Below, in pieces: positions 24,443 to 58,557 of a stretch of DNA of 64,000 nucleotides (position 1 is the first letter of the stretch; each line of letters begins with the position of its first letter). The notes under the pieces were generated by a model. The model was not told the DNA's origin, made no database searches, and was given only the letters and a program-made list of their open reading frames with translations. The stretch comes from Prorocentrum cordatum (Eukaryota): assembly GCA_963575745.1 (NCBI GenBank), contig CAUYUJ010000048.1, forward strand, positions 62,001 to 126,000, read 5' to 3'. Position numbers and translations under genes: made by a program.

Positions 24443-26026
24443 GATCCACATGGCTGCCGCCACATCCGCCGACCCCCCTCGCGTTTCCGAGGCTGCGGCT
24501 GGCCGCCGCAGGCGTGGATGCCAGGGAACTTGAGCGGGGGGCGGAGACGAGAAGATCGTGGAGGGGGCGCAGAGGACGAGGACAAAGGGGAGGATGAGAC
24601 GGAGGAACATAAGGGGCAAGAGAGAGAGAGGGAGAGAGAGAAAAAAGAAGAAGAAACAAATCCATTCACATCAATTCGAAACGGTGCTTGGCGGGTCGGC
24701 AGGGGCCCCCGTACTTCCTGGCGTTGGAGCGGCCCCAGAGCGGCCCCAGAGGGCGCCAAGAGAGTTGTTCAACGGCACCAGGACGCCTCAAGCTGGCCTT
24801 CGGGGCCCCGAAGATGCCCAAAGAGAGCCCCAGGAAGGCCGAAAAGAGTTCCAAGACGCCCTAAGATAGCCCCAGGACGGCCCAAGAGGCCCCGTAGACG
24901 CCCCAGGAGGTCCCCAGGACGACTTGAAAGAGGGCTTCAAGCACACATCGTCCAAATTCATTAAGTTTTTGCATGATTTGCGCATTGCCGCCCTGTTCGC
25001 CCTCACGACGCCTCCGACGGCCCAAGAGACCGCCAGAATCGGCACGAGACGGCCCAAGAGACCCCCACGAGATTCGAAAGACGGCCCCAGAGGCCACCAA
25101 GCGAGCTCCAACACGGCCCCAGGGGCCCCCAAGAAGGCCACATACTCCCCCTGGACGAGTCCAGGAGGCCCCAAATACGGTCCCAAGATGTGCCCGAGAG
25201 ACGCTATCCGAGCTGATATGTCGTGTTTTCCATCCCACGATGGCCACAAAAGCCCAAAAGAGGTCCCCGAGGGGCCCCCAACAGGCTCCCAGAGGCCCCC
25301 TAAGAGGACCCCCAGAGGCCCCAAGAGGCCCCAAGAGCCCTTGGTAGAGAGGGCCCCAGGTTGAGCCAAGAGCGCCGTAGTTGCCCCGCTCCACTTTCGC
25401 ATCCGCTGCGGCCCCTGGGCGATTCCATATTTTTCCCAGCAGGGGCGTCGGCCCAGGGTTCTCTTTTAGCTCTTTACCCCCGGAATCGACGGCTGTAGGG
25501 CCAGCGAAATGATCTGCGATACGGAACGGGGTCGAGCAGGGCTGGCGAAATGATTGTTGATGTCTCGAGCGAAACGCTTGTTTTGTCTCAGAATGTGTTG
25601 ATGATGTCTCGAGCTAAACGCTTGGTTTGTGTTATAGATGGTTCCCCGCCTGGGGACCAGAATTCAGAGGATGTCTCAGGTGAAATGCTTGATTTCACGT
25701 GCTCAGATCTTGAGGATGTCTCTCTCTGTTTCCCCATATCCTCAGATGGGGTTCTTGTTATTACTTGGACGCCTCCTACTCCTCCTCCTTCTTCCTCCTC
25801 CTCTTTTCTCGTCCCCTCCTGTCGGACATACTCAGACTTGCTCATACACAGACTTACTCATACTCAGACTTACTCATACTCAGACCTACTCATACTCAGA
25901 CTTACTCACACTCAGACATACTCATATACAGACTTACTCATACACAGACTTACTCATACACAGTATTAGTCATACCCAGACGTACACATACACAGACTTA
26001 CTCATACACAGACTTACTCATACTCA

Positions 26027-26480
26027 GCACCCCTAAGGGGAGCCGCCAGGGGTGGTTGCACGGGCTCGTTCGCGGCCATTTTGTGGGGATGTCTCAGGCG
26101 GTTTGCCTGTTTCTGTGCCCAACATCCTTCGCTTTCGGAGCAGATTTGGAGGATGTCTCGAGCGAGGCGCTCATTTCAGCACCCCTAAGGGGAGCCGCCA
26201 GGGGTGGTTGCACGGGCTCGTTCGCGGCCATTTTGTGGGGATGTCTCAGGCGGTTTGCTTGTTTCTGTGCCCAACATCCTTCGCTTTCGGAGCAGATTTG
26301 GAGGATGTCTCGAGCGAGGCGCTCATTTCAGCACCCCTAAGGGGAGCCGCCAGGGGTGGTTGCACGGGCTCGTTCGCGGCCATTTTGTGGGGATGTCTCA
26401 GGCGGTTTGCCTGTTTCTGTGCCCAACATCCTTCGCTTTCGGAGCAGATTTGGAGGATGTCTCGAGCGAGGCGCTCATTT
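26027..26480. repeat. 152-bp tandem repeat, 3 near-identical copies
   Basis: cagcacccctaaggggagccgccagggg recurs at 152-bp spacing; identical ORF starts at 26052, 26204 and 26356. Confidence 0.92.
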
Positions 26481-27654
26481 TCACCCCCCAGGTGGGCCAG
26501 ATTTTGAGGATGTCTCGATCGGTTTGCTAGTTTTGGTGGCCAGGCTCGTGGGCGCAGATTCTTCTCAGGATGCCACAGGAGGCTCCAACAGGCTCCAGGA
26601 GGCTCCAGGAGACCACATGAGGTCCCAGGAGGCATCAGGAGGCCACAGAAAGACTCAAGAGGCCACAGGATGTCCCAAGAGGCTCCAGGAGGCCCCAGGA
26701 AGCTCCAGAAGGCCTCAGGAAACCACAGGAGACCCCAGGAGACAACAGGAAGCGCCAGGAGGCCTCGGAAGGCAACAGGAGGCCCCGAGAGGCCCCAGGA
26801 GCAGGAGGCCTCAGAAGGCAACAGGAGTGGCTCCAATCCCATGTGTTTTACGTATGCTCCTATCGATTGGGCCTCACCTGGAGCACGATTCTTTGATGTT
26901 CTACGTATGTTTCTATAGATGGTCCTTCTCCTGTGTACACAATCCTAAATGTTTTACTCATGTTCCTATGTATTGGGCCTCTCCTGGGGCACGAGTCCTT
27001 GGTGTTTTACGCGTGTTCCTATAGATTGCCCTTCTCCTGTGGCTCTAATCCGCAATGTTTTATGTACGTCTGTTGCTATAGATTGCGCCTCCCCTGGGGC
27101 ACGAAACCTTCCTAGGAGGTCCCAGGAGGTCCCAAGAGGCTCCTGGAGACCCCAGGAAGCCCCAGTAGGTTTCAGGAGGCCCCAGGAGGCCCCAGGCTCA
27201 TGCACAGAGACGCGCTCGTACTACTGAGGCTCATTCACACTCCAATTCATTCGCAGTTAGATTGATGTCCAGACCGTCACAACTGAAGCCCGTTAATATT
27301 CGAAAGTTCTTGCGCCTAGACATTCACGGCGGACAGGTCCATGCGAGTAGATGCACATATGGGGAGCTCCACGCAGTGAATATGTTTTTTGTTCTCTCTC
27401 TCCCTCTCTCTCTCTCTCTTTCTCTCTCTCGAGAGACGCTTCGAGGATGTCTCGAGCGAAATTCTTGTTTTACAGAACTCGAGCGGCCTGGGCGCCCCAG
27501 GATGCCCAGGTGGTTCTGGGAGTCCGAACGCAATGTAATTTCCTAAGGAACGTGGCCCTGGGAGCGCGGACGCAGCGTAATTCACCAGGGAGCGCAGCCT
27601 TGGGAGCGTTGACGCAGCGTAGTTTACAAGGGACCGTGGCCCTGGCAGCACGGT

Positions 27655-28495
27655 GCCCTGGCACGTTTCGTGGCGCGTCCCGTGGCGAGTCCCTTTGGCA
27701 CGTCGCGCGGCGTGTCCCCTGGCACGTCCCGTGGCACGTCCAGTGGCACGTTCCGTAGCGCGTCCGTTTGGCACGTCTTGCGGTGCGTCCCCATTGCACG
27801 TCCTCTGGCACGTCGCCTAGCGCGTCCCTTGGGACGTTCCGAAGCGCGTCCCCTTGGCTTGTCCCTTTGTCAAGTAGCTCAGGGGCAGCCACAATGTGCT
27901 CAGGCAGCTCGAGCTTAAGATCAAGGCCAGTTCGGTCAGGACTCGGATGCAAAGGAGGACTCGGTCTACAACGCTATACAGCAGAATCGTTCCATGGCAC
28001 TTCGCAGTTCAGCACGGCGCCGCGCAGCACAGCCTTTGGCACGGAACACCAAGATCGATACATTCAGCATTGCAACCTGGCACGTTTCGTGGCGCGTCCC
28101 GTGGCGAGTCCCTTTGGCACGTCGCGCGGCGCGTCCCCTGGCACGTCCCGTGGCACGTCCAGTGGCACGTTCCGTAGCGCGTCCGTTTGGCACGTCTTGC
28201 GGTGCGTCCCCATTGCACGTCCTCTGGCACGTCGCCTAGCGCGTCCCTTGGGACGTTCCGTAGGGCGTCCCCCTGGCCTGTCCTCTTGTCAAGTAGCTCA
28301 GGGGCAGCCACTATGTGCTCAGGCAGCTCGAGCTTAAGATCAAGGCCAGTTCGGTCAGGACTCGGATGCAAATGAGGACTCGATCCACAACGCTACAGAG
28401 CACAATCGCGGCATGGCACATCGCAATTCAGTACGGCGCAGCACAGCACAGCTCCTGGCACGGCACATCAAGATCGATACATTCAGCCTTGCAAT
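27655..28495. repeat. ~419-bp tandem duplication of a composite-element 3' module
   Basis: ORFs at 27768 and 28187 begin identically. Homologous to ~21420-22270 and ~31540-32260. Confidence 0.88.
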
Positions 28496-30579
28496 TGCTT
28501 GTCGCCCAATCAGGTGTCTTGAAGACGTCACCATGCCTTACATTTCTGTACTTCTTTCCGGGTTCGTGGTTCGAGCATGTTCGGCCGCTCCGCGCGCCTC
28601 CCGCGCGCCCTCTCCGTGCGCGCAGGACGCAAGGGAGAGGGCGCGATCCAGACGCGGTTGCTCCAGCGCTGAACCCGCCTGCAAGCGTTTGGCGATTTTA
28701 CTTCGGCCCCCGCATGGACGCGGCGGGCGCCCTCGGTGGAGGAGCAGTTGTGAAACGCGCTTCAATCAAGTCGCAGTTGTGAAACGCGCTTCAATCCTTA
28801 GGATAAGCGGCAGTACAGTCAAGATGCTAGAATAAGGAACAGTTTGGGTTCGGAAGGGGCTCGGTGTTCCTTAGTTCGTTCCATGGCTGTTCCTCTAGCC
28901 CTCCTCGTGAACGAAGGCGGTTCTAGGGCTTAAAGGGGCTTCGTTCCTTAGCTAGCGTTCCATATTTCAGCGGCCCGACTGTAGCTAACAGCGTCGCAAA
29001 ACCAGACGCGCGCCGTCTCTCCTCGACCCCCTCGATTCCAGGGATTATCCCATGGGTCCCCGCTCGTTTTTTCCCGGAAGAGCCTGGGGCCCAGGATTCT
29101 CGTTGTCTTGGTTTCCCCCCGGCCTCGACTTGCGCAGGGCCGGCGAAAATATTGTAGTGGCCTTCCGCCAGTGCCGCCGTTCCGGGTCGCTTGAGGTGCC
29201 CCCCAGATTGGGTTGCGACTCTTCGCCAACAGACACGCACGCACACGCTCGCAGACATTACGCGCACACACGCACACACACACACACACGCGCACACACA
29301 CACCCACAGGCACACACAAACACACACACATACACACACAACACACACAACACACACAACACACAACACACAATACACAACACACAACACACACAACACA
29401 CACAACACACACAACACACAACACACACAACACACACAACACACAACATACGCACAACACACAACACACAACACACACAACACACAACATGCAACACACA
29501 CACAACACACAACACACACAACATACAACACACACAACACAACACACACACACAACACACACAACACACAACACACACAACACACACAACACACACAACA
29601 CACACAACACACAACACACACAACACACACAGCCACAGCACACACACAACACACACAGCACACACACAGCACACACAGCACACACAGCACACAGCACACA
29701 CAACACACACAACACACACAACACACACAACACACAACACACAACACACAACACACAACACACAACACACACAGCACACCACACACACACACACACTACA
29801 CTCACACACGCGCGCCACCTTCGCAGGCACATACACACGCACACGCCGGCAACACGCACACATACACACCGCGCACACCGCACAAACACACACACACCAC
29901 ACAACAGACACGCATTTCACCGCCACCTTCGTCTTCCCCCCATTTGTTTCCCGTTTTTTCGCTCTTGTCCCGTTCCACTTCTCTATCCCTCTTTCCTCGA
30001 TTTCTTTCCCGCGTTCACGGACAAACCTTACCCCGCGCACGCGCGCACCCCCCCCTCCCTTCCTCCCCTGCAGAGCCACCCCAGCAACCATTCCAGAGGC
30101 TGAAGCTCAGCCTCGACGCTGTAGGTGAGGCTCCTTCAAACTCACACGCTGCGGAAGCCTCCCCTTCCCATCCCCCACGCCATCAGAACGCACGCCACCG
30201 GAATCCCGCCCTTTTTCTTCCCCCAAAACCCCCTGTCCACAGGCGGGACGGGGGACCGAACCCCCCCCCCCTCTCCACGCCACCGGAACCCACGCCACCG
30301 GACCCCCCCCCTTTCTTTTACCCCGGCAGAGCCACCCCGGCCACCGGACCCCCCACTCTCCCCCCCTCTTCCCCCAATCCCCCTTGTCCACAGGCGGGAC
30401 GGGGGACCGTACCCCCCCCCCACGCCACCGGAACTCACGCCACTGGAATCCCCCCCCTCCCCCCCCTCCCCCTACCCCGGCAGAGCCACCCTGGTCACCC
30501 CGCCCCCCTGAAACCCGCACGCCGGATCGACTGATTTCTTTCATATGTAACGACGTCGCCCATGGCAGGCGCGTGAAGA

Positions 30580-31505
30580 GGTGAGGATGTCCCGAGCGAA
30601 ACGCTGGTTTTTGAAATTCCGATAGACGAAACACGTGGTGAAGTAAACATTATCGTTTGTTGGCGGATATTCCGAGTCTCGAGCGAAACGCTTGGCTTGC
30701 AGAGTGTGTTGAGGATTTCACGAGCGAGGCGCTTGTTTCGTGTTATATACAGTGTTCCTCTTCTGGGGACCAGAATTCAGAGAATGTCTCAGGTGAACTG
30801 CTTGTTTTCATGTGCCCAGGCCTTGGGAGTCACGAGCGAGACGCTTGGTTTCACGCGTCCAGGTTGCCCAGGCAGATGTCTAACATGAGGATGTGTGTTG
30901 CGAGACGCTTGCTTTCACGTGTCCAGGTCGCCCAGGCGGATCTCTAGCATGCGGATGTGTTGAGAACGTCTCCAGCGATACGCTTGTTTTCGCTTGCCCT
31001 GGTCGCCTAGGCGGATGTGCAACATGGAGATGGTTTTAGGATGTGTCGAGCGAGACGCTTGCTTTCACGTATCCAGGTCGCCAAGGCGGATGGCTAGCAT
31101 GAGGGTGTATGTTGAGGATGTGTTGAGCGAGACGCTTGTTTTCACTTGCCCTGGTCGCCTAGTCGGATGTCCAACATGAAGAAGTTGAGGATGTGTTGAA
31201 CGAGACGCTTGCTTTCACGTGTCCAGGTCGCCCAGGCGGGTGTCTAGCATGCGGATGTGTTGAGGATATGTTGATGGAGACGCTTGTTATCGCTTGCCCA
31301 GGCCGCCGAGGCGGATGTCTAACATGAGGATTTGGGCAGGATGTCTCGAGCGAAACGCTTATGTTCACGCGTCCAGGCTGCCCAGGCAGATGTCCAAGGA
31401 TGTGTGGAGAACGTCTCGAGCGAGATGATGGGTTTCAAGTGTCCAGGTCGCCCAGGCGGATGTCTAACATGAGGATGTGTCGAGGATGTCCCGAGCGAGA
31501 CGCTT
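30580..31505. repeat. ~60-70-bp degenerate minisatellite
   Basis: Recurrent gaggatgt..cgagcgagacgcttg...ccaggtcgcccaggcggatgtctaacatg. Confidence 0.8.
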
Positions 31506-32419
31506 GTCGCAGTAGAGCGCATCGCAGTCAACCCCGCCTGTCCGTGGGGCGTCCCCTGGCGCGCTGGCGCGTCCCCTGGCGCGTCCCTTGCGACGTTCTG
31601 GCGTGAGGTGCCTTGGCACGTCCCTTTGCACGCCACTCGGCGTGGCGGCACGTTCCCTGGCTCGTCCTCTGTCGCGTGTCCTGGCTCTTCCCAGGCGTTT
31701 CCCCTGCCCGTTCCGTGGCGCACCCTTTGCAACGTCCCTTGGCATGACGTCCTCTGGCCGCCCCATGGCACGCGCCTTGGCACGTCTCGTGAGAGGTCCC
31801 TGACACGTCCAGGGTGCGTCCCCTTTTACGTTCCCTGACACGCCCCCTGGCGCATCCCCTTGTTGCGCCCCTGGCACATCCTGCGGCGCGTCCGTGAGCC
31901 TGTGCCCCTCGACTTTCCGGAGCTGAGTCGGATTCCGAGGGCGAGTTGATTGAACGTCCCGCACATTTCTGCTTCAACTAGCTCTGGGGCAGCTACGTTG
32001 TGCTCAGTCAGCTCGAGCTTGAGATCCTGATCAGTTCGGTCGGCACTGGGATGCGAGGGAGGACTCGACCCACAATGCTATAGAGCACAATCGTGACATG
32101 GCACATCGCATTTCAGCACTGCACAACACAGTGAAGGCCTTCGGCGCGGTACATCAAGATCGATGCACTCAGCATGTCAATTGCCCGTCGCCCAACCAGG
32201 TGTCTTGAAAACGTTGCCATGCCTCACATTTCGACATTCCCTTCGGGTTCGTAGGTCGATCATGTTTTCATATGCGCGCTAGGTGAGAAGAAGAGAGAGA
32301 GAGAAATAAAGAAAAGGAGAGAGAGAGAGGAATAGAGAGAGAGAGAGAGATAGAGAGAAGGACAGAGAGGGGGTGGGGGGGGGCAACAAACAAAGAAGAA
32401 ACGAACACGAGATACGGGA

Positions 32420-32450
<31 letters not shown>

Positions 32451-34709
32451 TTAAAAACAATAGTTTTATGTGTGTTCTTTTTATATCGGGGGGCGGGGCC
32501 CCTCCTCCCCTGCGGGAAACTGAATGAGCCTGGCGCTTGCTTTGCGTCTGTGCGATACGTAAACACTACTGTTCGTTCGCTCTCCTCTCCCTCCGCCTTG
32601 TCCTCCCCCTCCTCGTCGTTCTCCCCCATCTTACTTCTCCTCCTCCACCTCCTCCTCCTCTTCCCCATCCGCTTCCTCATCGTTCTCGCCCTTCTCTCCA
32701 TCCGCGTCTGCCTTTTCCTCCTCCTTCGCATCCTCGCCCTCCTCTTCCTCCCTCCCCTCTCTATCAATTTTCTGATGCTCGTCGTCGTCCCTCCCTCCCT
32801 CCCTCGTCCCCATGTTCCTCCTACCTCATGAGGCGTCATGTCTCCCTGGTCCGCCGCCGCTCTTTCTCCGGATATCGAACCCGCAGCCGCCATCCACTCA
32901 CAGTGCGGAAACCATTTGATGGGACACATTGTGCACGTGATGCATGCAGCGTTTTTGTTTGTTGTTTACACCATCCATGTCATCTGCATGAATGAATGAA
33001 AGCGAGCGAAGGGCGCAACGACTCAGGAGCCCAGTATGGATGTTTTTTGTTTGGCCGCGACGTGAAGGAGTTATGGAAACGACACGTAGCACGCTGCGCA
33101 AAAAATTACAGGCGGCGAACGCGAACGTCGCGACGAGCGGGGCATTCAAACATTGATGCCCTTTGTAATGTGCGGGGGCAGCGTGCAGCATTGAAAACGC
33201 ATAAAACATTGGAATATTGACAGGAGTTTGCAAGAACAAGTATTTCAACTAGCACAACCAATAGAGACACGTTACCGATGTGTAAGGCAAGGTTTTTTGC
33301 AGTATACATCATAATTTGAGAGCCAAGACGAAACGCGCGAAAGGCGCAGCAAAGGGCGAACAAAAGAAACGCGCTCATACTTGTCCATCGCTCGACATGA
33401 GCGTGCTCGACAAACGGAGACTGCAATTACACGCGTTGCGCCCGCGCGACGCGGCCCGTGTTGCAAGCGCGCGCAGGAATCGACGAAGGCGGCCATGGGT
33501 GCATCCAAAATTGCATGCCCCATCTGACCCGTTGAAACGCGCTCAAACCGATAGCCAGCAGCACACGTTAAGCGAAAGCGAGAGGTACGCGAAGGACGGG
33601 TGAGGGGTGCATTCAAAAGTAAATGTCCCTCAAATATGCGAGGCCCCCGCATGGAGTGAACGCCAATGGGTTTCAAAGCGTCACCATCTGTTCGCGCGCG
33701 CTCGCCATGTTGCGCGGAAAAAATTGACGACTTCATGCCAGATCGTTCAATGTTCGCAACATTGCCGCTTCTTTCTTGAATTTTTTAGAGCAAATGTTGG
33801 GCGACCGCCCGCATTCAGAATTTATCGAGAATGTGTTGAATTTACCTTTCGCCGCATTCCACGAAACCAGAAGGGCATGTGGGTCGTGGACGAATCTCCG
33901 CGAAAAACAAATCTCTGATTGGGGTGGTTCAGGACTCCCTCAACGCGCCCGCATGGGTGGATTACTTCCCGTGACAGCTGGAAGCTGCGGCGCTTCCAAT
34001 ATTCGAAGCGTACATCTTTCATGGCAGACATCCCGCGCCCAAAATCAACGAACAATGCACCTGACTTCTTCATTTGGGCGGCATTCGTGGGATCCTTTCA
34101 CTGGGGTGCGTCCGACATGGATGAAATCCCTCGAGCAAGTGAGACCGATGGCTCCCTGTTTCGCCCGTCGCGATCCTAATGAATGGCAGGCATCCCGCTC
34201 CCAACAAAAACGAACCACGCGAGTAGTTCTTCCCTCTTGACGACAGTAACAGATGACAGGCAGGGACGGGCAAAGCACATGGCCCCAAGATGCATTAGGG
34301 CGGCGCTGGGAACGCCTTTCGTTCGCTGGCAAGTGACCCCTCGATTCCCCCAGAGGTTCCCCACGTTTTGCCACCGCATCGGACGTGCCGGCCCAGATTG
34401 CGCGAAGACTTCACAACGGGTCCTTCGAGGAATCCCTAGGCTCTTCCACGAGGCTCAAGCTGATCGATGCGTTGGACATTGCTTGTTCGGAAGTCGCGGT
34501 CTCGCGACCGTGGAGCGTTCGGCATGGTTTGCGGGCTGCCCGAGGCAGCACTCTGGCGTGGCCTGCTGCAGCCCTCGCGCGAGCCCAGCACAGCCCCACG
34601 ACGGCCTACGACTGCATGCGATCGGGATCTTTTGCACAGCGTGTCGCTCTGCCGGTCCTGGCCCTTCGCGCTTCGGTGCGACACTCTATCCCTCTCGCGG
34701 TCCCCCAGC

Positions 34710-34889
34710 TCGAAGACCGATTTCTGACCACATCCACCTCTGGATCCTCGATTCTATGATAGGCCCTCGGGGGTGGAAGTGGGTAGTTTTTCCTTCCCCT
34801 GGAGCGGGGAAACTGCCCACCTCCACCTCTGGAAACCGTTTTTCGCAAGGCACCTCGGGAAGTGGGTGTGGTCAGAAATCGGTCTCCTA
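34710..34889. mobile_element. TIR MITE with 5-bp TSD
   Basis: agaccgatttctgaccaca...tgtggtcagaaatcggtct inverted repeat, flanked by ccagc/ccagc. Confidence 0.78.
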
Positions 34890-35714
34890 CCAGCGTCAAC
34901 GTCCCGGGCCGTTCCGAGCCTCCCGCCCCGCGGAGCGGGGCGACACGCTGCTCGGTTGCAGCGCGGAGCTTGGCGCCGGGGCCGCCGCGACACGCTAAGC
35001 AAAAGTTCCCAGCCGTAGCCCGAGAAAGTCCAAGCCCAGTCCAAGATAGCCCGAACGCCCTCACCACCACGAGGCCAGAATCGCAAGTCCTGTCTGGACG
35101 ACCTCGCCCCAACGGCCCGCAGACTACTCTGGACAGCCCCGGAGCCATGTCTGTCCCGCCCTCGACGACCAGAGAGCGGGCCCTCCGCCGGCCCCGAAGG
35201 ACTGCCCAGGGAGCTCCAAAGTGTTCCCGAGGATTCTCAGAGAGATCGCCACCCGCTCCACACTCCCCCCAGCCTCTCAGCCACGCGCAGAGGGAGGTGG
35301 GGGGAGGGGGGAGGGCTTCTTAGAAGCACCCCTGCTTCTTAGAAGGCGCGGGCCTTATCTATAGGTGCAAGGCCGGCGCCTTCTAAGATGCAGCCTCCTT
35401 CTAAGAAGCCCTCCCCCCTCCCTCCACCCCCTTGTGCTCGCCGCCAAGCCTCATCACAATGGAGCGGAGGTCGGTGTCTCTCCTCCGGTTTCCCCCGCCT
35501 CCTTGATCCCTCCTTCCCGTCGCTCCTACCACTTCGTATCCCTGCGGCCCTTCTTAAGCGCGCGACGCGCGCGCGCGTGGGTTGGGAACTTCGGCTTAGG
35601 GGCGTCGCGCGGCGCACCGGGTCCGGGGGCCCGGGGCGGGGACCTCGACCGCAAATGTGCACCCCGGGGGGCCCGGAGGCTCGTCGGGGCTTGCCGGAGG
35701 CCTCCCCAGTCAGG

Positions 35715-36980
35715 CAAGACGGCCCAAGAAGCGCCCAAGACGGCCCAAGAAACTTCCAAGAGGCCTCCAAGAGGGCTCCGAGATGCTGAAGATGGCCTCC
35801 AGACGTCCAAGGACGCCCCCAAGAGGCCCCAAGAAGCCTCCAACATGCGTCCCAAGAGGGCCCCTAGACGCAAAAATTGGCCCATTCCCTTCGTAAAACG
35901 TACATTTTCAACAAAGTTGTCTTTTGGGCTTTCCGACGTTACAGGACGGCCCAAGAGGCGCCCAAGACCGCCCCAAGACGGCCCAAGAAGCTTCCAGAGG
36001 GCCCCAGGACAGCCCAAGAGGGCCCCAAGACGGCCCAAGAGGCGCCCAAGATGGCCCAAGAGGGCCCCAAGACGGGCCCAAGAGGGGGCCCAGAGGGGGA
36101 CCACGAACCGCAAGCTCGAGCCTTCCGCCCCAAGAGGCCGCCAGGAGGCCCCCAGGAGGCCCCTCAAGAGGCCCCAGGAGACCCCAGACGTCCAAGGACG
36201 CCCCCAAGAGGCCCCAAGAAGCCTCCAACATGCGTCCCAAGAGGGCCCCTAGACGCAAGAATTGGCCCATTCCCTTTGTAAAACGTACATTTTTAACAAA
36301 GTCGCCTTTTGGGCTTTCCGACGTTACAGGACGGCCCAAGAGGCGCCCAAGACCGCCCCAAGACGGCCCAAGAAGCTTCCAAGAGGGCCCCAGGACAGCC
36401 CAAGAGGGCCCCAAGACGGCCCAAGAGGCGCCCAAGATGGCCCAAGAGGGCCCCAAGACGGGCCCAAGAGGGGGCCCAGAGGGGGACCACGAACCGCAAG
36501 CTCGAGCCTTCCGCCCCAAGAGGCCGCCAGGAGGCCCCCAGGAGGCCCCTCAAGAGGCCCCAGGAGACCCCAGACGTCCAAGGACGCCCCCAAGAGGCCC
36601 CAAGAAGCCTCCAACATGCGTCCCAAGAGGGCCCCTAGACGCAAAAATTGGCCCATTCCCTTCGTAAAACGTACAGTTTTAACAAAGTCGCCTTTTGGGC
36701 TTTCCGACGTTACAGGACGGCCCAAGAGGCGCCCAAGACCGCCCCAAGACGGCCCAAGAAGCTTCCAAGAGGGCCCCAGGACAGCCCAAGAGGGCCCCAA
36801 GACGGCCCAAGAGGCGCCCAAGATGGCCCAAGAGGGCCCCAAGACGGGCCCAAGAGGGGGCCCAGAGGGGGACCACGAACCGCAAGCTCGAGCCTTCCGC
36901 CCCAAGAGGCCGCCAGGAGGCCCCAAGGAGGCCCCTCAAGAGGCCCCAGGAGACCCCAGTCGTCCAAGGACGCCCCCAAG
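35715..36980. repeat. ~386-bp tandem repeat, ~3.3 copies, built from ccaaga/ggcccc subrepeats
   Basis: Near-identical ORF starts at 35877, 36262 and 36648. Confidence 0.92.
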
Positions 36981-39900
36981 ACGCTTCGCGTCACCAATTT
37001 CTTCTCGCAACGATTCCTGGGTCTGTGACTCGACAGAACCTAAGCGCGCGCGAAGCGCGCGCGTGGTTCTATATGTATATATATATATATTATATATATG
37101 TGCGCTTTTCATGTGCAGCGATGCACATACATACGTGTGTACATATATATGTACATATATTTGTATGCACATTCACACATAGTTACATGTGTATATATAT
37201 ATATATGTGTGTGTATTAATGCACCTATGTATGATAAAGATATATAGATGGAGGATGCGGAGAGACAGATTTAGCGTCGGCTCTGTTGGTCCGTCTCGGG
37301 GCCCTTGCTGGGACCTTCCAGGGATGCCTGGGCGCTCTCTTGGGGCCTGTCGGGAGCATTCGTGGGCAAACTGAGGCCGCCTTGGGGTCCTCGGCGGGCC
37401 GTCTTGGTTCCGACGAGCTCCCTGTGGGGATCGTCGGGGGCTGTCCTGGCGGCCTCTTGGACCGTCTTGGGCGATGGTACGCCGAAAGGCATGCTGCTAG
37501 CACTCAAGGGAGGAAAAAACACCTGGACCGGACAATTGGCGTTTACTAAGCGGCCCTGGGCGTTTACTAAACAGCCTTGCCCTGCTTTATTATTTCCTTG
37601 TGTGCGTTTACTAAACGGCTTCGCGAGTCGGGGAGGTTAGTATCGGGGAGGATATTCTTGCCCTCTAGACACTGCGCGCAAGAACCAAATATTGAGCCCA
37701 CAGAGCGGGATACAGGGTTGGCCCCCTCATAGGGGGAAGTCTGCACGCAGAGTTTGAACTCATTGGGTGTGGGGGGTACTGCGCCGAGTCCTCCTCCTCC
37801 TCCTCCTCCTCGACCCCCTTCCTCCCTCCCTCCCTGCCTCCCTCCTTCGTCCTCCAGGATCGAGGCGTTGGGCACGCGTCTGACACTCCTCGAGCCTCCA
37901 GAGTGGGCCGACAGGTGCGGTACCAATCGTTGCAACGTTTCTTGGGGTCGTGTTGGCGTCCTTTGGGAGGGGGTTGTAAGGCCTCGGGGGCCAGTGGAGA
38001 GCCTGTCGTGGTTCATGGGGCACGGAGTGCGCAATGGGTGTGCCGAGTGGAGGCTCCGAGGAGCCGCTTCGGGGGCCAGGTGAGCGCCCCACATGCGCGA
38101 AGTGCGTGAGGGGTGTGCCGCGGTTTCGTGTTTCCAGGCTGTATGTTTACGTATCCCATGGGCCCTGAGGCCCAAACCATTTGTATGTTTACGTGTCACA
38201 GGGGCCTGAGAGCGCAGCTTACTCGTCATTTCACGTGCCCCACGAGAGTATGGAGCAGGAACTGCGTGTTCGGTGAACTGGGTTGAGGCTTCCGTGGCCT
38301 TGAGGGCAGGCCATTCGTATTTTTACGTGTCCCAGTAGCTGTGATGCAGTCCTGGTTTGCGTTGGCCGACGGAATGGGCGAGGCAGCGTTTGGCATGCCT
38401 CCTGCGTGCCAGCTCACTCTCTTCCACCCTCCTTTTGGTCTTCGTGTACATTCGGAGCCCGCAACACGGCCAGGGCCTGCAGGAGGCCCGCCGGATGCAA
38501 TCGCTTCGCTCACTCCGCAGGCCCGTACCGTGTACAATGTTCAGTGGCATTCGGCCCGGCTGGGGCGTTGCCCAGAAGCCTTGTCGGGAGGCTCGTTGGG
38601 GTCTCCCGGGGGCCTCGATCGGAGGCCTCGTCGCTGTGGGGGGACCGCTCGTGGCATCTCGGGGTTGCCCTGGGGCCTCCAGGGGGCCCTTTTGGAGGCC
38701 TCTTCGGGGGCCTTGCTGGCAGTCTCGGCGGCTATCTTCGGGGAGAAATGGCTCCTAATGGCAGTTCGGGTTCCCCTCTTTGGGCCCCCCTTGGGTGCCT
38801 CTGGAGCCCCCTTGGGGGGCCCTCTCGGGCTATCCTGGAGTCCTCCTGGAAACCTCTTGGGTTGTCTTGGGGTGATGTGGGGCCCCCCTAGTCGGAAACT
38901 GGAGCATATACATTACCAGCGGCGTGTTGTTTTTCAATCCTTGGACTTTTTGAGGGTCAGGTACGACGTCGGGGTGGTGTGGTGTATAGTTGTTTCCCCG
39001 TTTTCCTGGGGAGATGACGAACATGTATACACCAGCATCCCGTATACACCAGGATCCGCTTTCCTGTGCGAATTTCAGTGCAGGGCTCGAAAACGCGTCG
39101 GTGTCGTCTTGGTGTCGGAAGCACGAAAAGGCGATGACGCGAACGTCGCTGACAAGACTTAAAGACAATCACATATGTTTGCCCCTCGGGGCCTCCGTGG
39201 GGTTATCTTGGGGCTCTCTTCACGCGTTTCGGAGGCGTTTCGGAGGCGTCTCGTGCTAACCAGAGATTAATTACCTTGGGCGTGTTTGAGCGCTCTTGGG
39301 CCGTCTCGGGCCATCTTGAACTCTCTTGGTGGCTCCATGGGGCGCCATTGGGAGCCTTGGAGGCCGCGCTCAGGACGATTACCATCTTTGAATCGAGTCT
39401 GCCGGGAGTCTGCCGGGGCACTTTACGTCCGGGGACTCTCAGGGGCCGTCCCGCGCGCCCCTTGGGAGTCCTGTGCGCCTGCTACTGGAGATCTTACCAC
39501 GCCTCTGGCCAGTTGGGCCGGCGAATTTGACGTTGCTGGGGGGATGGTTTTGATCGCCTGGGACTCTCCTCGGCCCTCTTGGGACGCCTCTGGATGCTTC
39601 TTGCGTGCTGTGTGGGTCTCATGGGCCCTTTCCCATTCCATTCCGTTCCACTGCGAGTCTGGGAGGTGTCTTTGGTTGTCTTGGCGGCCTCTGGGGACTC
39701 TCTTGAGCCACTCTGCAGCAGCATTGTTGAAACAGCCTCTCGGACTCCTACTTGGCACGTCTCCTCCATGTCTCATGTCTGCAATTATTGACGCTTTGCG
39801 TATCACCAGCAGCTACGCCTTTGTAGTTCAATTCACCTTCGGCAGCTTGCAGCCCCTGGCAGTCAGCAGCCCCTGGCAGTCAGCAGCGCGCCTGCAGCTC

Positions 39901-40951
39901 GATGCACGTTTGCAGCCCTTGGCAGTTTTGCAGCCCTGCCCCCTCCCCCTCGGCTACCTCCTGGTCCCGGCCTGAGTTGCGGCGGTAGGCCTGCTTGCGC
40001 TACGTAACTTAGGACTTCGCGCGGCCCGCTCGGACCTTGACACGCCGTCGGCGCGCTCACCTGCGGCTGGTACCAAAAAAGTATCTCCAGCAGCCCATCC
40101 GTGAACGATTCCCAGGCGAGATGTCGTGTCAGGGGCGGCGGGTGGAGCACTGGCGCAACAATGAAAGGGTGCACCAGTTCAACCAAAGCTGCCGAAGCTG
40201 CGGTCAACCTGAACATCGGCCATACATTTTTCACTTGGCGACCTTTGAGAGCCCCTTGCAGGCTGCTTCGGGCTATTTGAAGGCTCTGTTGGGGTCCTTT
40301 GGGGTATCTTGGGGGCCATCTCGGCGCTCCCTCGGGGCCCTTTGTGGGACCTTGGCGGGCCCGTGGGGTTGTCTTTCAGGCAATCGACCGCAATCCTGCT
40401 TGGCTTTCGGCCCTCGTGATTATTGGAGCCTTCTCGGGGTGCTCTTGTGGGGCCTTGGGGCCCTCTCGGGGTCCTCTTAGAATACTCTGAGCCTCTCTGG
40501 GGCCCATCCGAAGCAAATAGACGAGACAGCAAACAACAAATTTAGTGATAACGCGCTACAAAAGCTGCGTGATTTGGGCATGTTCGGGGCGTCCTTGGGA
40601 GGCTGTGTTGGGGTTTTTCGGGTGCATGTTCGAGGCCATCTTGAGCAAAATCAGAGGATTTTGCTTGATCGTTGGGGAAATTTTGGCCGGTTGGGACCGC
40701 CCTGGCCCTTTTCTGTTGTGCCAGCACGGACCTTGCGACACCTCGCGCCCCCCCGTCCACACACACACACACCGGGGACAAGGTACGATGGTAGACTCCC
40801 CCCCAGAGGGGAAAACGGAGTCGTTCTGCAAGGGCTGATGCCCTTGACCGCCCGTGTCCAGAGGGCTGTGAATTGTGAGCCCCGCTGTGGAGAGACCGAC
40901 GGAGCTGGAGGAAACGTCTCACACGGCGGGTGATCCCGAGAAGGGTCGGCG

Positions 40952-40996
40952 GACTTCCTCCTCAAGTACTTCGACATCCGTCAGAAGGCGCGCCAG
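40952..40996 (+). CDS. Coiled-coil protein exon 5 (DFLLKYFDIRQKARQ)
   Basis: Completes the C-D-F-L-L-K-Y-F-D-x-R-Q-x-A-R motif begun in exon 4. CAG|gt donor. Acceptor is non-canonical (cg|G). Confidence 0.82.
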
Positions 40997-42653: not shown

Positions 42654-42724
42654 GCCCCGTGCTCGAGGCGCTCGGGCGGGGCTACCGCCTGATCGACACC
42701 GCGCAGGTCTACAACAACGAGAAG
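42654..42724 (+). CDS. Aldo-keto reductase exon (GPVLEALGRGYRLIDTAQVYNNEK)
   Basis: GYRxIDTAxxYxNE motif with catalytic Asp and Tyr. AG|G acceptor, GC donor. Confidence 0.92.
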
Positions 42725-45494: not shown

Positions 45495-47165
<1,671 letters not shown>

Positions 47166-47712: not shown

Positions 47713-47775
47713 GGCGTCGGGGCGGCGCTGCGCAAGAGTGGCCTGCCCCGGGAGAGCGTCTTCATCGAGACGAAG
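47713..47775 (+). CDS. Aldo-keto reductase exon (GVGAALRKSGLPRESVFIETK)
   Basis: VGxAxxxSGxxRExxFIxTK motif with catalytic Lys. AG|G acceptor, GC donor. Confidence 0.92.
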
Positions 47776-48142: not shown

Positions 48143-48234
48143 GTGTGGCGTTCCAGCCATGGCTACGACCGGACCATGAAGGCGTGCAAGCAGTCTTTGA
48201 AGAAGTTGGGCGTGGATTACATCGATTTATATGT
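48143..48234 (+). CDS. Aldo-keto reductase exon (VWRSSHGYDRTMKACKQSLKKLGVDYIDLYV)
   Basis: SLxxLGxDYIDLY motif. AG|G acceptor. Donor taken as gatagc at 48235, the same hexamer as the donor at 52500. Confidence 0.9.
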
Positions 48235-48299
48235 GATAGCACCGGCTTTGCCATCGCTCTCTGCCCGGTTTCCGGGAAGCTCCTGCGAGTGGACAAGAG

Positions 48300-48446
48300 T
48301 TAAGTCGGGCATTTTCCTCTACAGGAGAAACATTCTAAAATCGTCAAACATTTGTCTGGGGACTATTTTGAACAATTGTTGAACATGTTTTTGCTAGTTC
48401 TATGTTTCTTCCAAAATCCGCATGTAGGAGGACATGCCCGACACAA
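48300..48446. mobile_element. Family A MITE
   Basis: Family TIRs; TSD gacaagag / ggcaaggg (6/8). Confidence 0.8.
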
Positions 48447-48674
48447 GGCAAGGGGTGTTCTTTCCGAACTCGTATTGCTCGAAGGCGAACCCCCGCATAA
48501 TGCGCCAGCATCGCCGAGCTATTCGAACGGGCAGCCGGCTGTACCCCAGCGCGAGGTCGGAACCGGAGGACGGGCCACGACGCACACGACAAGCACGGCG
48601 CCGGCGACGCTGGCGCTGCTAACAGCCCCAGACCTTCGAAGCCGTGATTTGTGCACGATGTGGGCCCCTTCTCG

Positions 48675-48845
48675 AGGCCTCCCAGATGGGGTCGGAGCAG
48701 ATGGGGCCGCAGAATGGCGCCGCATCGCCGACGCACCGTCGATGTCGCTTATGAATCACCGATGCATCGCCGATGCATCGGCGATGCATCTGCGATGAGG
48801 TGCAATGCTCCGACCACGTCCACCCGGACCCTATTTGGGAGGCTT
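48675..48845. mobile_element. Family C MITE
   Basis: aggcctcccagatggggtcggagcagatgggg...cggaccctatttgggaggctt with a gccgatgcatcggcgatgcat core. Confidence 0.8.
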
Positions 48846-49079
48846 TCAGACGGGGCTAGGACGAGGATAAATCCGTTCAAGAGCGTTCCGGCACGCCTTC
48901 CGAGCATTCCGGGACGCTCTGAGAAGACATTCTCCAGTCGGAGATTGCTGGAAGAGCCTGTGGCCCAAGGTGCCCCCAGGATGTCCAAGGAGCCCCCCAC
49001 GGCCTCCAGAGCACCCCCCACGAGGCCCACAGGGCCCCAGAGGCTCCAAAATTGAGCGAATAGCTGGGGGCACCTTGGG

Positions 49080-49233
49080 TTATGTCGGGCACGTCCCTCT
49101 ACAGGAGGAATATCAAAAATAGTAACAACATGGTATGGGGACGATTTCTCTTATCATTTTGATAATGTTTGAGCATGTTGTGGCTATTTTCAATTTCCCT
49201 GAATCCGCCTGTAGGGGGACATGCCCGACCTAA
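49080..49233. mobile_element. Family A MITE
   Basis: Family TIRs; exact TSD accttggg. Confidence 0.88.
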
Positions 49234-51738
49234 ACCTTGGGCCGGGGCACAATTGCCAACCCCCGATCCCCGCCGGGTCTCAGAGATTTTCGATGTTCAT
49301 CCTCACCCGATGTTGGCCTCGTCCTGGCTTCGTCTTGGGCCTCTGCAGCTGGAGCTCTGGGCCCCCCCACCCTCGGCTCTGGCGCGTGCCGCCGTGTGGG
49401 CGGTAGCCTGCCGTGTGCGCCCCTAGTGCTGGGGCCCCGGGAGGAGAGCACGGCCGCTGGCGGCCGAGCCAAGCCCGCGAGCACGGTCCACTGCGTATAT
49501 CTCCTTTTCCCCTCCCCCGCTCGCTCACCCGTGCCACAAGGCCGTGCAGATCATTGGGGCTGACCCGAGAAGAACCGGCGAAGAACACCACCGGGATTGA
49601 TGCCAGGGGTGAGCTGCCACACCCAGGGTCCCTTGGTTGGCCCAGGCCGCGACGGGCCGCCAGCTTGGAGCCTTTCTCACTCCGTGCGACCAGCGCAGGG
49701 ACGAATAGGATCTGCGCTTTGGAGAGGACTCTGGGAACGGGTCAAGGGAGCTTGCGAGGGCCGCCTGTGTATTCTTCAGAGGGCGCCCTTTGCGGTCTCC
49801 GGGCCGACTACAAAAGGGCACCGTGACCAGCCTGTAACCTCCAAGTGCGGCCGCGCAGACTGGCCACACCACATCAGCTGCCAATGCGTGATTCGTCTTA
49901 GCTTCCGTCGCCTCCTCATGTGCCCCCACCTCCGTCATGATTTCACCGCACCTCCGCAATCTCGGCGGAACCGCATCGGCGTGAACAACGCTGGCGGCTC
50001 ACACGGCCGAGCCACCCAGCAAGAACATCACCGCTGATGATTCGTGTCGCCTGTCTTTTCGTCGCCCCTCTCATTCTCATTCCCACATGGTTCTGCCAAC
50101 ATCATACACACCTTCGCCGGCCATTCTCCTCGGGGACCGGAGCCCCGAGACCGAGCGCGCCAGTTTTGCCGCGACCTCGGCTGCCCGTCTCCCAGTGCAG
50201 ACACCGCGAGTGATGTCTATATATATATATATAAATATGCAACAGCTCAAACATCACCGCTGCCCACTCCCCCCGCGCCCCTGCCTCCCTCCGCCCCTGC
50301 TCGGCGGAGGGCGGCGCGACGGGCCTCAGGGTCTCGAGCGTCGCGCGGCGTCGCGGCGGGCCGAGGGGTCACGGGTGTCGCCGCCGCCAGCCACCGGAAC
50401 CGCAGCCCACGCACGCCGCAGGCTGCGTCGCGTCGTGCTGTTCTTCGCAGCGCACTCCGGCTTTCTGCAAACATCTCGGGGGCAACGGCCCCATGCGGGG
50501 GGGGGAGGAGGCCGCATCCAAAACGGACTCTCGCGCCCTCTGCAATCAGCAAGCAGGCGGAAGAGGAGGAAGAGCAGGAGGTGGAGGAGGAGGATGAGGA
50601 GGAGCAGAAGAGGAGGAGGGGGGGGAGCAGAAGAGGAGGTGGAGGATGAGGAGGAGCAGAAGAGGAGGAGGAGGAGGAGGAGGAGGAGGAGGAGGAGGAA
50701 GGGGAGGGGAACTACGGCGACGACGACCACGATGACGTCGACCTCCGTTCCTCTGCCGTTCCCGCCGATCGCCGCCAAACGAGAGTGCTGACGTCGACGA
50801 CGACGCTCGCACTCTCCCGCTCGTGCTGAGGTCACCGGTGCGTCGGCAGCGCCGTGCGGTGCTCGGGCCCCGGCCTCTCGGTGAGGGCGCTGCGGTGGTT
50901 CGCCCTCTCCCGGGCCACCTGGGCGGTGCTGTCGTCGTCGTCGTGACTCGTTCGGGTCGGAGCGCGACTGAGTCGTTGGTTTACTATTTGTTGTCGTCGA
51001 GCCTGCGACAGACCACGCAGAAAACGCAGTAGGTCTGCGAACGTTCGATGTTTTTGGAGAAGTTTGCAGTAATTGCAATTTTGGGGCACATCGATTATGC
51101 AGTCGACCTGCTGCTCGAACAGTTCACGAACGACGACGGCCTCGCCCAGGTTCCTCGGAAACTGGCGAGCAACTGCAAAATACCCACCTTGAGGCGGGGG
51201 GAGGAGAAGGAGGAGGAGGAGGAGGAGGAGGAGGAGGAGGAGGAGCAGCAGGAGGAGGAGGAGGCGACAGGCTACCCAGAACACTGCGACACACTACACG
51301 GAAAACCCAGCAGATCCCTCTCCTCGGACCTCCCTCGGGTGGCTCTGGGAAGCGGGCCCCCAGAGGCCCCGACGGAGGCCGTGCCGGCCGCCACGACTGC
51401 TCTTGCGCGGGCGCCAGGCGATGCAGGGGGCTCGCCAGGGGCCGCGCGGGGCCCTCCGCGCCGCTCCAGCGGGGCCGGCTGGAGGGCGGCCCAGTCCTGG
51501 GACCGCAGGGGCTCTGGCCATGTTGGTTCTTCGCGGCAGCGGCCCCAAACCAAGACAGGGCCAGTCGTGTGCGGCTTCGGACAGTGGTGGCTTTCACGGC
51601 ACCGTGGCGAAAGCAGGCCACGTTCCCACAGGTTCCAGAGCTTGCTTGGTTGCCTGCAGTTCCGTGAAATATGATGTGCAGTAGTGATCGTAGACTTGTC
51701 CTTGCAATATGTAGAGTCAGCTGCCCTGGCCCTGCGAG

Positions 51739-51769
<31 letters not shown>

Positions 51770-52032
51770 AGAGAGAGAGAGTGAGAAAATCAACAAAAGA
51801 AACACGAACACACGGGGGCACAGACACGAATGAACGTCTATTTCCAGGCAAGTACGAGTACCTGGGTGAAGTGGAGGGGAGGGCGAACACCCAGCAGATA
51901 CTGGAACATGGGGGGAATCCTGGCACTAGTGTCTGTTTAGTTATTTGTGTGCCCCGCCTGAGCCCCTTCAATCTGTCTTGGTCCCGGTTGGGCAGCTACC
52001 AGGGGAGGCCCCACCGTGAAGAGGGGCGCGCG

Positions 52033-52105
52033 GCTTCACTGGCCCGGCTGCAAGACGGGCTGGCCGCTCCCCAGGGGCACCTCGGCGCCACCCGACTGGA
52101 CGCCG
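52033..52105 (+). CDS. Aldo-keto reductase exon (LHWPGCKTGWPLPRGTSAPPDWTP)
   Basis: HWP motif with catalytic His, colinear and in frame with the flanking exons. 5' boundary ambiguous: CG|G at 52033, or in-frame AG|G at 52024. GA donor at 52106. Confidence 0.8.
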
Positions 52106-52463: not shown

Positions 52464-52499
52464 GACATGCGCAACACGGGCACTTGGCGGGCCATGGAG
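52464..52499 (+). CDS. Aldo-keto reductase exon (DMRNTGTWRAME)
   Basis: TWxAME motif. Pyrimidine-rich cag|G acceptor, GA donor. Confidence 0.88.
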
Positions 52500-58449: not shown

Positions 58450-58557
58450 GATTTGTACGAACAGGGCAAGGTGAAGGCCATCGGAGTCACCAACTATTCC
58501 ATCCGGCATTTGCAGCAGCTGCTGGAGACATGCCGCGTCAAGCCCATGGTGAACCAG
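58450..58557 (+). CDS. Aldo-keto reductase exon (DLYEQGKVKAIGVTNYSIRHLQQLLETCRVKPMVNQ)
   Basis: GKVKAIGVxN...PxVNQ motif. AG|G acceptor, GC donor. The next exon (xExHP...) was not found, so the gene probably continues beyond the window. Confidence 0.93.

What the first reader, a model, noticed from the sequence alone, without database searches (positions are those of the whole stretch)
48235..52032. Second apparent GA...CG intron, next to the AKR catalytic His
Seen: DLYV-LHWP needs TAT GT|gatagc...gcgcg|G CTT CAC TGG. The in-frame AG 9 nt upstream would insert Gly-Ala-Arg (DLYVGARLHWP). Established: DLYxxHWP spacing is strongly conserved in AKRs. Two GA(T)...(G)CG|G junctions in two genes, each with an AG 8-9 nt upstream, suggest a real minor intron class rather than noise (inference).
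Basis: partly seen in the sequence, partly recalled or inferred. Interest (0 to 1): 0.75.

Follow-up and report, generated by a model that had tools for sequence, protein, structure and literature searches.

The report
Intron without an AG acceptor
A real intron in a dinoflagellate aldo-keto reductase gene has no normal AG end that keeps the enzyme's catalytic motif intact, and a second intron nearby shows the same oddity, so an unusual splice acceptor may be in use, though no RNA reads could be obtained to prove it.

Summary
It is a multi-exon AKR on the + strand; seven exons match the transcript-derived protein P0001 at 163 of 163 residues.

I mapped ten introns in the window. Eight are standard dinoflagellate G[T/C/A]..AG|G introns. 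Two are not: AKR D/E, which is this finding, and 24443-40951 in a gene nested in the 34-kb AKR intron.

For both odd introns, no AG acceptor preserves the conserved protein spacing. Both allow GA..CG|G. Both start with GAT, end with GCG|G, have AGA(R)GGG 9-13 nt upstream, and have purine-rich 3' ends.

- P0001 and 61 of 61 readable homologs have Ile, not Leu, before HWPG.
- The window gives Ile only with a junction one codon downstream (TA..GC, AG..CT or GC..TT).

Good-looking AG|G sites lie 8-9 nt upstream and would add in-frame insertions (+GAR, +PHGSAD).

No RNA run and no whole genome were available.

Verdict: an AG-less junction is probably real (about 0.6 over both placements). The GA..CG reading is the single best but unproven (0.45). 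An alternative template copy, an assembly difference or cryptic AG use remain open.

The parts
8431..8476 (+). AKR exon A (3' part; its 5' limit was not mapped)
   Evidence: 100% match to P0001 residues 1-16. Followed by a GC..AG|G intron of 34177 nt.
42654..42724 (+). AKR exon B (holds the catalytic Asp and Tyr region LIDTAQVYNNEK)
47713..47775 (+). AKR exon C (ends in the catalytic Lys, FIETK)
   Evidence: GC..AG|G introns lie on both sides.
48143..48234 (+). AKR exon D (VWRSS...DLYV). It may extend to 48236-48238 if the Ile codon is read from here.
   Evidence: Pfam PF00248 positions 76-109; P0001 100%.
48235..52032 (+). Equivalent placement: 48236-52033 (AT..GG). Placements giving Val-Ile-His: 48237-52034, 48238-52035, 48239-52036.
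   Evidence: It contains MITE-like and palindromic repeat copies and GGA microsatellites.
52020..52024 (+). Two overlapping AG dinucleotides (AG at 52020-21, then AG|G at 52022-24), 9-13 nt upstream of the homology-consistent exon start. They are either candidate cryptic or canonical acceptors, or part of the shared AGA(R)GGG element.
52033..52105 (+). AKR exon E ((L)HWPGCKTGWPLPRGTSAPPDWTP, with the catalytic His). It starts at 52035-52037 in the Ile placements.
52464..52499 (+). AKR exon F
   Evidence: GA..AG|G introns lie on both sides.
58450..58557 (+). AKR exon G. The rest of the gene lies beyond the window.
   Evidence: Pfam PF00248 E 3.7e-6.
24143..24442 (+). Exon 3 of the nested coiled-coil gene, ending ...HLEC(D)
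   Evidence: tblastn with representatives P0066-P0087.
24443..40951 (+). The second AG-less intron (GA..CG|G, 16509 nt). Equivalent placements: AT..GG, TC..GA, CC..AC.
   Evidence: 17 of 17 representatives carrying the motif have the ECD+aromatic spacing.
40952..40996 (+). Micro-exon 4 of the nested gene (DFLLKYFDIRQKARQ)
   Evidence: Followed by a GT..AG|G intron, 40997-41176.

Best explanation
The 3.8-kb stretch is a genuine spliceosomal intron of a multi-exon aldo-keto reductase gene in a Prorocentrum-like dinoflagellate. I think its 3' junction is made at a site that is not an AG. By sequence this is indistinguishable from G|AT...GG|C.

The same termini fit the only other AG-less intron of the window, 24443-40951 in a gene nested in the AKR's 34-kb intron. 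Under this reading the first and last intron bases stay G, position -2 is C instead of A, and the AGs 8-13 nt upstream are skipped.

Shown: the gene and its exons; the absence of any AG solution that keeps the conserved spacing; the features shared by the two odd introns.

Inferred: that the spliceosome really joins at these points. The idea that the upstream AGs are skipped because they sit in or too near the branch region is speculation. This reading also requires the window's copy to encode Leu where the sequenced transcript-derived protein has Ile.
For: Gene and exons:
- Exons A-G reproduce P0001.
- Eight of the ten mapped introns place as G[T/C/A]..AG|G with G at exon position -1.

No AG solution:
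- Of 20 in-frame, stop-free canonical pairings at D/E, none gives the two-residue spacing before HWP. That spacing is seen in 61 of 62 homologs.
- Of 12 canonical pairings at the nested gene's intron, none gives ECD+aromatic, seen in 17 of 17 representatives that carry the motif.

Shared features:
- Both odd introns allow GA..CG|G, start with GAT and end with GCG|G.
- They match at 7 of 11 positions from -13 to -3; only 1.4-2.3% of 1107 other CGG sites match as well.
- Pyrimidine fraction at -20..-3 is 0.28 and 0.33, against 0.44-0.72 in the eight canonical introns.

Other points:
- No insert-bearing isoform was found among the 62 proteins fetched with exon D and exon E words.
- The exons carry no frameshift or stop, which argues against a decayed copy.
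- Context, if the organism lead is right: P. cordatum gene models have an unusually low share of AGG acceptors (79.7% against 93% or more in the other non-parasitic dinoflagellates compared). A reviewer queried this (PMC10666404: Table 2 passage; review-history passages).
Against: - P0001 is identical to the window at 163 of 163 residues only if Ile is read.
- All 61 readable homologs have Ile.
- The AG|G sites at 52022-24 and 40942-44 resemble the window's ordinary acceptors, and nothing shown here explains why they would be skipped.
- Both odd donors lack the G at exon -1 that all eight canonical donors have.
- AG acceptors are described as nearly universal in core dinoflagellates (PMC12584245 passage).
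- The motif similarity was found post hoc and is modest. There are only two cases.
- No RNA reads, no transcript nucleotides and no copy-number information were available.
Confidence: 0.45

Rival explanations
1. The window is the true template of P0001. The junction then lies one codon downstream of the reader's. Exon D runs through GTGA, GTGAT or GTGATA, and exon E starts at TTCAC, TCAC or CAC. The intron termini are TA..GC, AG..CT or GC..TT. This would be a signature-less non-canonical intron of the kind described in Amoebophrya.
For: This is the only reading that needs no difference between the window and P0001 (163 of 163). It keeps the invariant Ile. The GC..TT version has an ordinary GC donor, the commonest donor type in P. 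cordatum models (51.4%; PMC10666404 Table 2 passage). Signature-less non-canonical introns exist in a basal dinoflagellate (PMC7789003 passages). In another species' transcript, P0029, one nucleotide is missing exactly at the Val/Ile codon border, which hints at an imprecise junction here.
Against: No dinucleotide pair is shared with any placement of the nested gene's odd intron. The in-register GA..CG|G and the shared upstream motif would then be coincidence. The acceptor is followed by C or T, not G. There is no excess complementarity between the intron ends (z 0.97 and -0.37), whereas Amoebophrya introners have inverted repeats. Reading Val-Ile through a GAT-type donor in this phase is expected 3 times in 4 and so carries little weight. 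Related mRNAs use ATC (13) or ATT (3) for this Ile, never ATA (16 contigs).
Confidence: 0.15
2. Splicing is canonical. The GA donor at 48235 pairs with AG|G at 52022-24, so this copy encodes DLYV-GAR-LHWPG. The nested gene uses GC at 24453 with AG|G at 40942-44 and encodes ECD-PHGSAD-FLLKYF. P0001 then comes from another allele or paralog without the insert.
For: Both pairings are in frame and stop-free. The upstream AG|G sites look like the window's other acceptors. The nested-gene pairing has G at -1 and +1, like all eight canonical introns. AG acceptors are nearly universal in dinoflagellates. Close variants of this AKR exist: P0054 and P0055 are in the same 90% cluster, and P0054 matches the window at 155 of 161 residues.
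Against: It puts three residues, one an Arg, into the strand directly before the catalytic His, and six residues into a motif with fixed spacing in 17 of 17 representatives. No insert-bearing protein was found among the 62 fetched, although the insert-less P0001 was. The AKR donor has T at -1. A second Asp codon directly before FLLKYF would be coincidence. The AKR pairings with G at -1 and +1 need larger insertions, up to about 20 residues.
Confidence: 0.15
3. The bases in the window are not those of the expressed template. If 52031 and 52034 (and 40950 in the nested gene) were A instead of C, both introns would be ordinary GA..AG|G introns. They would have boundary repeats (GAT and GA) like intron F/G, and the AKR codon would be Ile. 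The cause would be an assembly or consensus error, or an allele or paralog difference.
For: It explains the Ile of P0001 and the conservation. It restores the boundary-repeat rule seen in the other introns (3-7 nt) and described by Mendez et al. (PMC5032977 passages). The F/G donor carries the same GATAGC hexamer. All three differences would be of the same kind (A read as C). If the organism lead is right, the published assembly is a hybrid short-read and long-read consensus of a highly duplicated genome (PMC10666404 methods passage).
Against: It needs three specific changes, two of them exactly at position -2 of acceptors in two genes, while about 490 exonic bases show no difference from P0001 at the protein level. 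The same CGGAGG context is intact at the A/B acceptor, which argues against a context-specific artefact. Independent real mutations at this density are very unlikely in a copy that is otherwise undiverged.
Confidence: 0.15

Closest known systems
Standard core-dinoflagellate spliceosomal introns: GT, GC or GA donor, AG|G acceptor, identical repeated intron boundary (IRIB). Sources: Mendez et al. 2015, PMC5032977 (passages); P. cordatum Table 2, PMC10666404 (passages); A. carterae, PMC12584245 (passages).
   Same: A GA (or GC) start is available. The intron sits in a gene whose other five introns are of this kind. Intron F/G has the same GATAGC donor hexamer.
   Different: There is no AG at the 3' end. 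The boundary repeat is reduced to 1 nt, against 3-7 nt in the other AKR introns. There is no G at exon position -1. The last 20 nt are purine-rich instead of pyrimidine-rich.
Non-canonical introns and introner elements of Amoebophrya (Farhat et al. 2021, PMC7789003, passages)
   Same: These are introns in a dinoflagellate lineage whose ends depart from GT-AG and are still removed precisely.
   Different: In Amoebophrya they are the majority of introns and have no dinucleotide signature. A subset has 8-20 nt inverted repeats plus 3-5 nt direct repeats at the ends. Here 8 of 10 introns are canonical. No end-to-end complementarity was found. The two odd introns share one possible signature.
U12-type AT-AC introns (consensus as quoted in the introduction of PMC5032977; otherwise recalled)
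   Same: The junction can also be written with an AT start (G|AT...).
   Different: The donor does not match RTATCCTY. The 3' end would be GG, not AC.
Cryptic 3' splice-site use after loss of an AG (general splicing knowledge, recalled)
   Same: An AG|G lies 9 nt upstream in frame and would give a small insertion.
   Different: The only transcript-derived protein found for this gene has no insertion.
Aldo-keto reductases close to prostaglandin F synthase, YvgN and 2,5-diketo-D-gluconate reductase. This concerns the gene, not the intron.
   Same: P0001 matches 4fzi_A and 3d3f_A at about 3e-67 and 1a80_A at 6.6e-58. The Asp, Tyr, Lys and His motifs are present in exons B, C and E.

Membership tests
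Dinoflagellate canonical spliceosomal intron (G[T/C/A]..AG|G with IRIB) | 5' end is GT, GC or GA | tested here: met
Dinoflagellate canonical spliceosomal intron (G[T/C/A]..AG|G with IRIB) | 3' end is AG at a position that gives the known protein | tested here: not met
   Three placements reproduce P0001, all non-AG. Of 20 canonical in-frame pairings, none has the conserved spacing.
Dinoflagellate canonical spliceosomal intron (G[T/C/A]..AG|G with IRIB) | G as the first base of the downstream exon | tested here: inconclusive
   Met in the GA..CG|G placement (G at 52033). Not met in the Ile placements, where the base is T or C.
Dinoflagellate canonical spliceosomal intron (G[T/C/A]..AG|G with IRIB) | Boundary repeat of 2 nt or more containing GG | tested here: not met
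   At most 1 nt is shared (G or T), against 3-7 nt in the other five AKR introns. Rule taken from PMC5032977 passages.
Amoebophrya-type introner element | Inverted repeats of 8-20 nt near both intron ends | tested here: not met
   Duplex energy of the ends is not better than shuffles (z 0.97 for 40 nt, -0.37 for 80 nt). None of the 25 longest of 201 inverted pairs joins the two ends.
Amoebophrya-type introner element | Short direct repeats at the boundaries | tested here: inconclusive
   CGGCTT occurs at 48243-48248 and 52031-52036. A 6-mer shared between two 30-nt ends is not rare by chance, and it does not flank the junction.
U12-type (AT-AC) intron | Donor RTATCCTY and 3' AC | tested here: not met
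   The donor reads ATAGCACC and the 3' end would be GG.
Proposed GA..CG|G minor class | Recurrence of the same termini and context in independent introns | tested here: inconclusive
   2 of 10 introns in the window share GAT, GCG|G and AGA(R)GGG. No genome-wide data.
Proposed GA..CG|G minor class | Transcripts joined exactly at these points | not testable with these tools
   No sequencing run was listed. P0001's own contig was not recovered. The protein evidence conflicts by one residue.
Aldo-keto reductase superfamily (the host gene) | PF00248 fold with the Asp-Tyr-Lys-His tetrad | tested here: met
   Pfam hits on exons D and G. P0001 against PDB AKRs down to 2.7e-67. The motifs are visible in exons B, C and E.

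The most novel reading that the evidence does not exclude
Prorocentrum-like dinoflagellates have a distinct, fairly common class of spliceosomal introns with GA at the 5' end and CG at the 3' end. The terminal G's are kept, and +2 A goes with -2 C. The class is marked by a purine-rich AGA(R)GGG element about 10 nt upstream, whose own AGs are not used. Gene-prediction pipelines allow only AG acceptors, so such introns would be forced onto nearby AGs. That could explain the unexplained low share of AGG acceptors (79.7%) in P. cordatum gene models, and many small spurious insertions in its predicted proteins.
Probability: 0.25. Interest if true: 0.8.

Novelty: new variant of a known kind. Interest (0 to 1): 0.55.

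Why it matters
The AG at the 3' splice site is one of the most constant signals in eukaryotic gene expression, and it is reported as nearly universal even in dinoflagellates with their relaxed donors.

If a CG (or otherwise AG-less) acceptor is used reproducibly, three things follow:
- It shows how far second-step 3' site recognition can be relaxed.
- It gives a concrete, testable reason for the low AGG-acceptor figure in the P. cordatum annotation.
- Current dinoflagellate gene models, which hard-code AG, would systematically mis-join a fraction of exons.

If instead the locus differs from the expressed copy, the case is a useful warning. Near-identical duplicates or consensus errors in these assemblies can imitate new intron classes.

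Tried and rejected
- **RNA evidence:** The look-up of sequencing runs on 47700-52520 (kind any) listed no run and no RNA holder. Read laying therefore could not be used.
- **Whole genome:** none is held, so copy number and a genome-wide tally could not be done.
- **Transcript nucleotides:** The search for related loci with P0001 in metagenome contigs returned 80 loci. Only L001-L016 are dinoflagellate-like mRNAs, at 72-83% identity, and P0001's own 990-nt contig was not among them. The Ile codon of the transcript stays unknown.
- **Cluster look-up of P0001:** three members, none with an insert.
- **Micro-exon idea:** no second IHWPG-coding piece exists in the window.
- **Hairpin or introner idea for the D/E intron:** no excess complementarity between the ends.
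- **P0029 as intron retention:** I first read it this way and rejected it. Its tail is the +1 frame of the normal mRNA.
- **Val-Ile read-through of exon D:** I first weighted it heavily, then discounted it. A GAT donor in this phase gives Ile 3 times in 4.
- **Pfam scans of 300 further ORFs**: only the AKR exon G and an MCM6_C-like piece on the - strand turned up. That piece led to P0064, labelled Prorocentrum cordatum (87% identity). This is an organism lead, not proof, and it was no use for junction counts.
- **Motif scan for AGARGGG upstream of CGG:** 8 + strand sites, but no further convincing exon.
- **MAFFT alignment of the two odd intron ends:** no long shared element.
- **The search of earlier findings,** three look-ups: nothing.
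- **Ile codon counts printed:** they used a mis-framed E/F join, so I do not rely on them.
Full report
**What is there.** The window is 60% G+C nuclear DNA with long introns, microsatellites and MITE-like repeats. No whole genome is held for it. One lead to the organism: a - strand ORF at 61131-61510 is 87% identical to a protein labelled Prorocentrum cordatum. I use the P. cordatum literature only as context.

**The gene.** The stop-to-stop ORF around 48140-48238 hits Pfam Aldo_ket_red (E 8.5e-5). A word search with that piece returned 53 proteins among 54 candidates, nearly all from transcript-length contigs. P0001 is 284 aa and lies on a 990-nt contig, so it is an intron-less template. It maps to seven window exons at 100% identity: 8431-8476, 42654-42724, 47713-47775, 48143-48238, 52037-52105, 52464-52499 and 58450-58557. 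The other two members of its 90% cluster differ from the window; P0054 matches at 155 of 161 residues. So P0001 is this gene, or something much closer to it than the known variants. P0001 matches solved AKRs: prostaglandin F synthase and YvgN at about 3e-67, and 2,5-diketo-D-gluconate reductase at 6.6e-58.

**Checking the observation.** The bases are as described. I listed every exon-end and exon-start pair that reproduces P0001 across each junction, without assuming any splice motif. Five of the six AKR introns have a G[C/A]..AG|G placement (GC, GC, GC, GA, GA), with a 3-7 nt boundary repeat, as described for dinoflagellates (PMC5032977 passages). The D/E junction has only three placements: TA..GC, AG..CT and GC..TT. 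The Ile placements give 163 of 163.

Of 62 fetched homologs, 59 match the regex for two residues before HWPG, and all of them have Ile second. P0053 and P0056 have the same with a variant DLY. P0029 is frameshifted exactly at the Val/Ile border; its tail is the +1 frame of the normal message. A full list of in-frame, stop-free G[T/C/A]..AG pairings holds 20 entries, and none has the conserved spacing. The smallest changes are +GAR (48234|52024) and +RGAR replacing Val-Ile (48232|52022). The observation therefore stands: no AG acceptor gives the expected protein.

**The second junction.** A 422-aa ORF at 15940-17205 belongs to a large coiled-coil protein family (3614 hits at E up to 0.001). Mapping nine full-length representatives and a motif search gave a five-exon gene on the + strand, nested in the 34-kb AKR intron:
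- exon 1, about 16087-17175;
- exon 2, 17374-17994;
- exon 3, 24143-24442;
- exon 4, a 45-nt micro-exon, 40952-40996;
- exon 5, 41177-41239.

Introns 1, 2 and 4 are GA..AG|G, GT..AG|G and GT..AG|G. Intron 3 is different. The conserved ECD+aromatic spacing holds in all 17 of the 150 representatives in which my regex found the motif. It is kept only by GA..CG|G, AT..GG, TC..GA or CC..AC.

**What the two odd introns share.**
- Both can be written GA..CG|G.
- Both start with GAT and end with GCG|G.
- Both donors lack the exon -1 G that all eight canonical donors have.
- Both have AGA(R)GGG at -13 to -7, with an AG|G 8 or 9 nt before the junction.
- Positions -13 to -3 agree at 7 of 11. Only 1.4% and 2.3% of 1107 other CGG sites in the window match either sequence as well.
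- Their last 20 nt are purine-rich: pyrimidine fraction 0.28 and 0.33, against 0.44-0.72 in the canonical introns.

These comparisons were made after seeing the data, so they are suggestive only.

**Weighing the readings.**

It needs the window to encode Leu where P0001 has Ile. It also needs good-looking upstream AG|G sites to be skipped.

(b) *Junction one codon downstream.* It needs no difference from P0001. It gives termini with no parallel in the other intron and turns the shared features into coincidence. The Val-Ile read-through of exon D is weak support, because a GAT donor in this phase yields Ile 3 times in 4.

(c) *Canonical AG|G use.* It gives +GAR directly before the catalytic His, and +PHGSAD in the nested gene. 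The latter pairing (24452|40944) has G at -1 and +1 and looks fully ordinary. No insert-bearing protein was among the 62 fetched with exon D and exon E words, which is weak evidence.

(d) *The window differs from the expressed template.* A at 52031, 52034 and 40950 would make both introns ordinary GA..AG|G with boundary repeats, and would restore Ile. This needs three like changes, two exactly at -2 of acceptors, in a region whose exons show no other difference. The same CGGAGG context is intact at the A/B acceptor.

I put (a) at 0.45, (b), (c) and (d) at 0.15 each, and the rest on things not considered, such as RNA-level change. Taken together, an AG-less junction is truly used with probability about 0.6.

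[quoted passage not shown] P. cordatum models show GT 24.7%, GC 51.4% and GA 23.8%, and only 79.7% AGG acceptors; the pipelines used there admit only those motifs (PMC10666404 passages). A reviewer asked whether the low acceptor figure reflected a recognition problem, and the authors thought not (review-history passages). Amoebophrya has a majority of signature-less non-canonical introns, some with inverted and direct repeats (PMC7789003 passages). The D/E intron shows no such end pairing. Two literature searches surfaced no report of CG acceptors in dinoflagellates. That is not proof that none is in print.

**Limits.** No RNA run was listed. No transcript nucleotide sequence for this gene was recovered. 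There is no copy-number information. Supplementary tables of the P. cordatum paper beyond the two text files searched were not seen. The organism assignment rests on one 87% protein match.

Noticed in passing
15940-41239 (+), inside the AKR intron 8477-42653: A complete-looking five-exon gene for a coiled-coil protein of a large protist family lies nested, on the same strand, in the 34-kb AKR intron. It includes a 45-nt micro-exon at 40952-40996. The family gave 3614 hits at E up to 0.001.
   Followed up: yes
17176-17373; 48680-48850; 42060-42270 (-): Intron 1 of the nested gene (198 nt) consists almost wholly of a palindromic element with a GATGCATCGGCGATGCATC core. Copies lie inside two AKR introns. 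It looks like an introner-type mobile element that forms a whole intron.
   Followed up: partly
2721, 3211, 7251/7403, 14901/15048, 15637/15787, 48304, 49084/49229, 53626: A family of MITE-like elements about 150 bp long with terminal inverted repeats beginning GTCGGGC..CCCTCTACAGG. There are 12 termini in the window, against 0 expected from shuffles.
   Followed up: partly
Protein P0029 (another dinoflagellate's transcript): Its reading frame shifts by one nucleotide exactly at the Val/Ile codon border, the same place as the window's D/E junction. This is either a splice-junction wobble at a conserved intron position or an assembly slip.
   Followed up: partly
61131-61510 (-): An ORF with an MCM6_C-like winged-helix hit (E 1.7e-5) is 87% identical to part of an 831-aa 'unnamed protein product' of Prorocentrum cordatum. 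That gene model switches frame just upstream, possibly a forced splice.
   Followed up: partly
17995 and 40997: Two GT donors of the nested gene share the same extended sequence (G|GTTCGGG).
   Followed up: no
43000-47300: More than 4 kb of low-complexity repeats lies inside AKR intron B/C, giving long artificial ORFs in all frames (poly-Leu/Tyr/Thr, and a roughly 17-residue protein-like repeat at 43000-44750).
   Followed up: no
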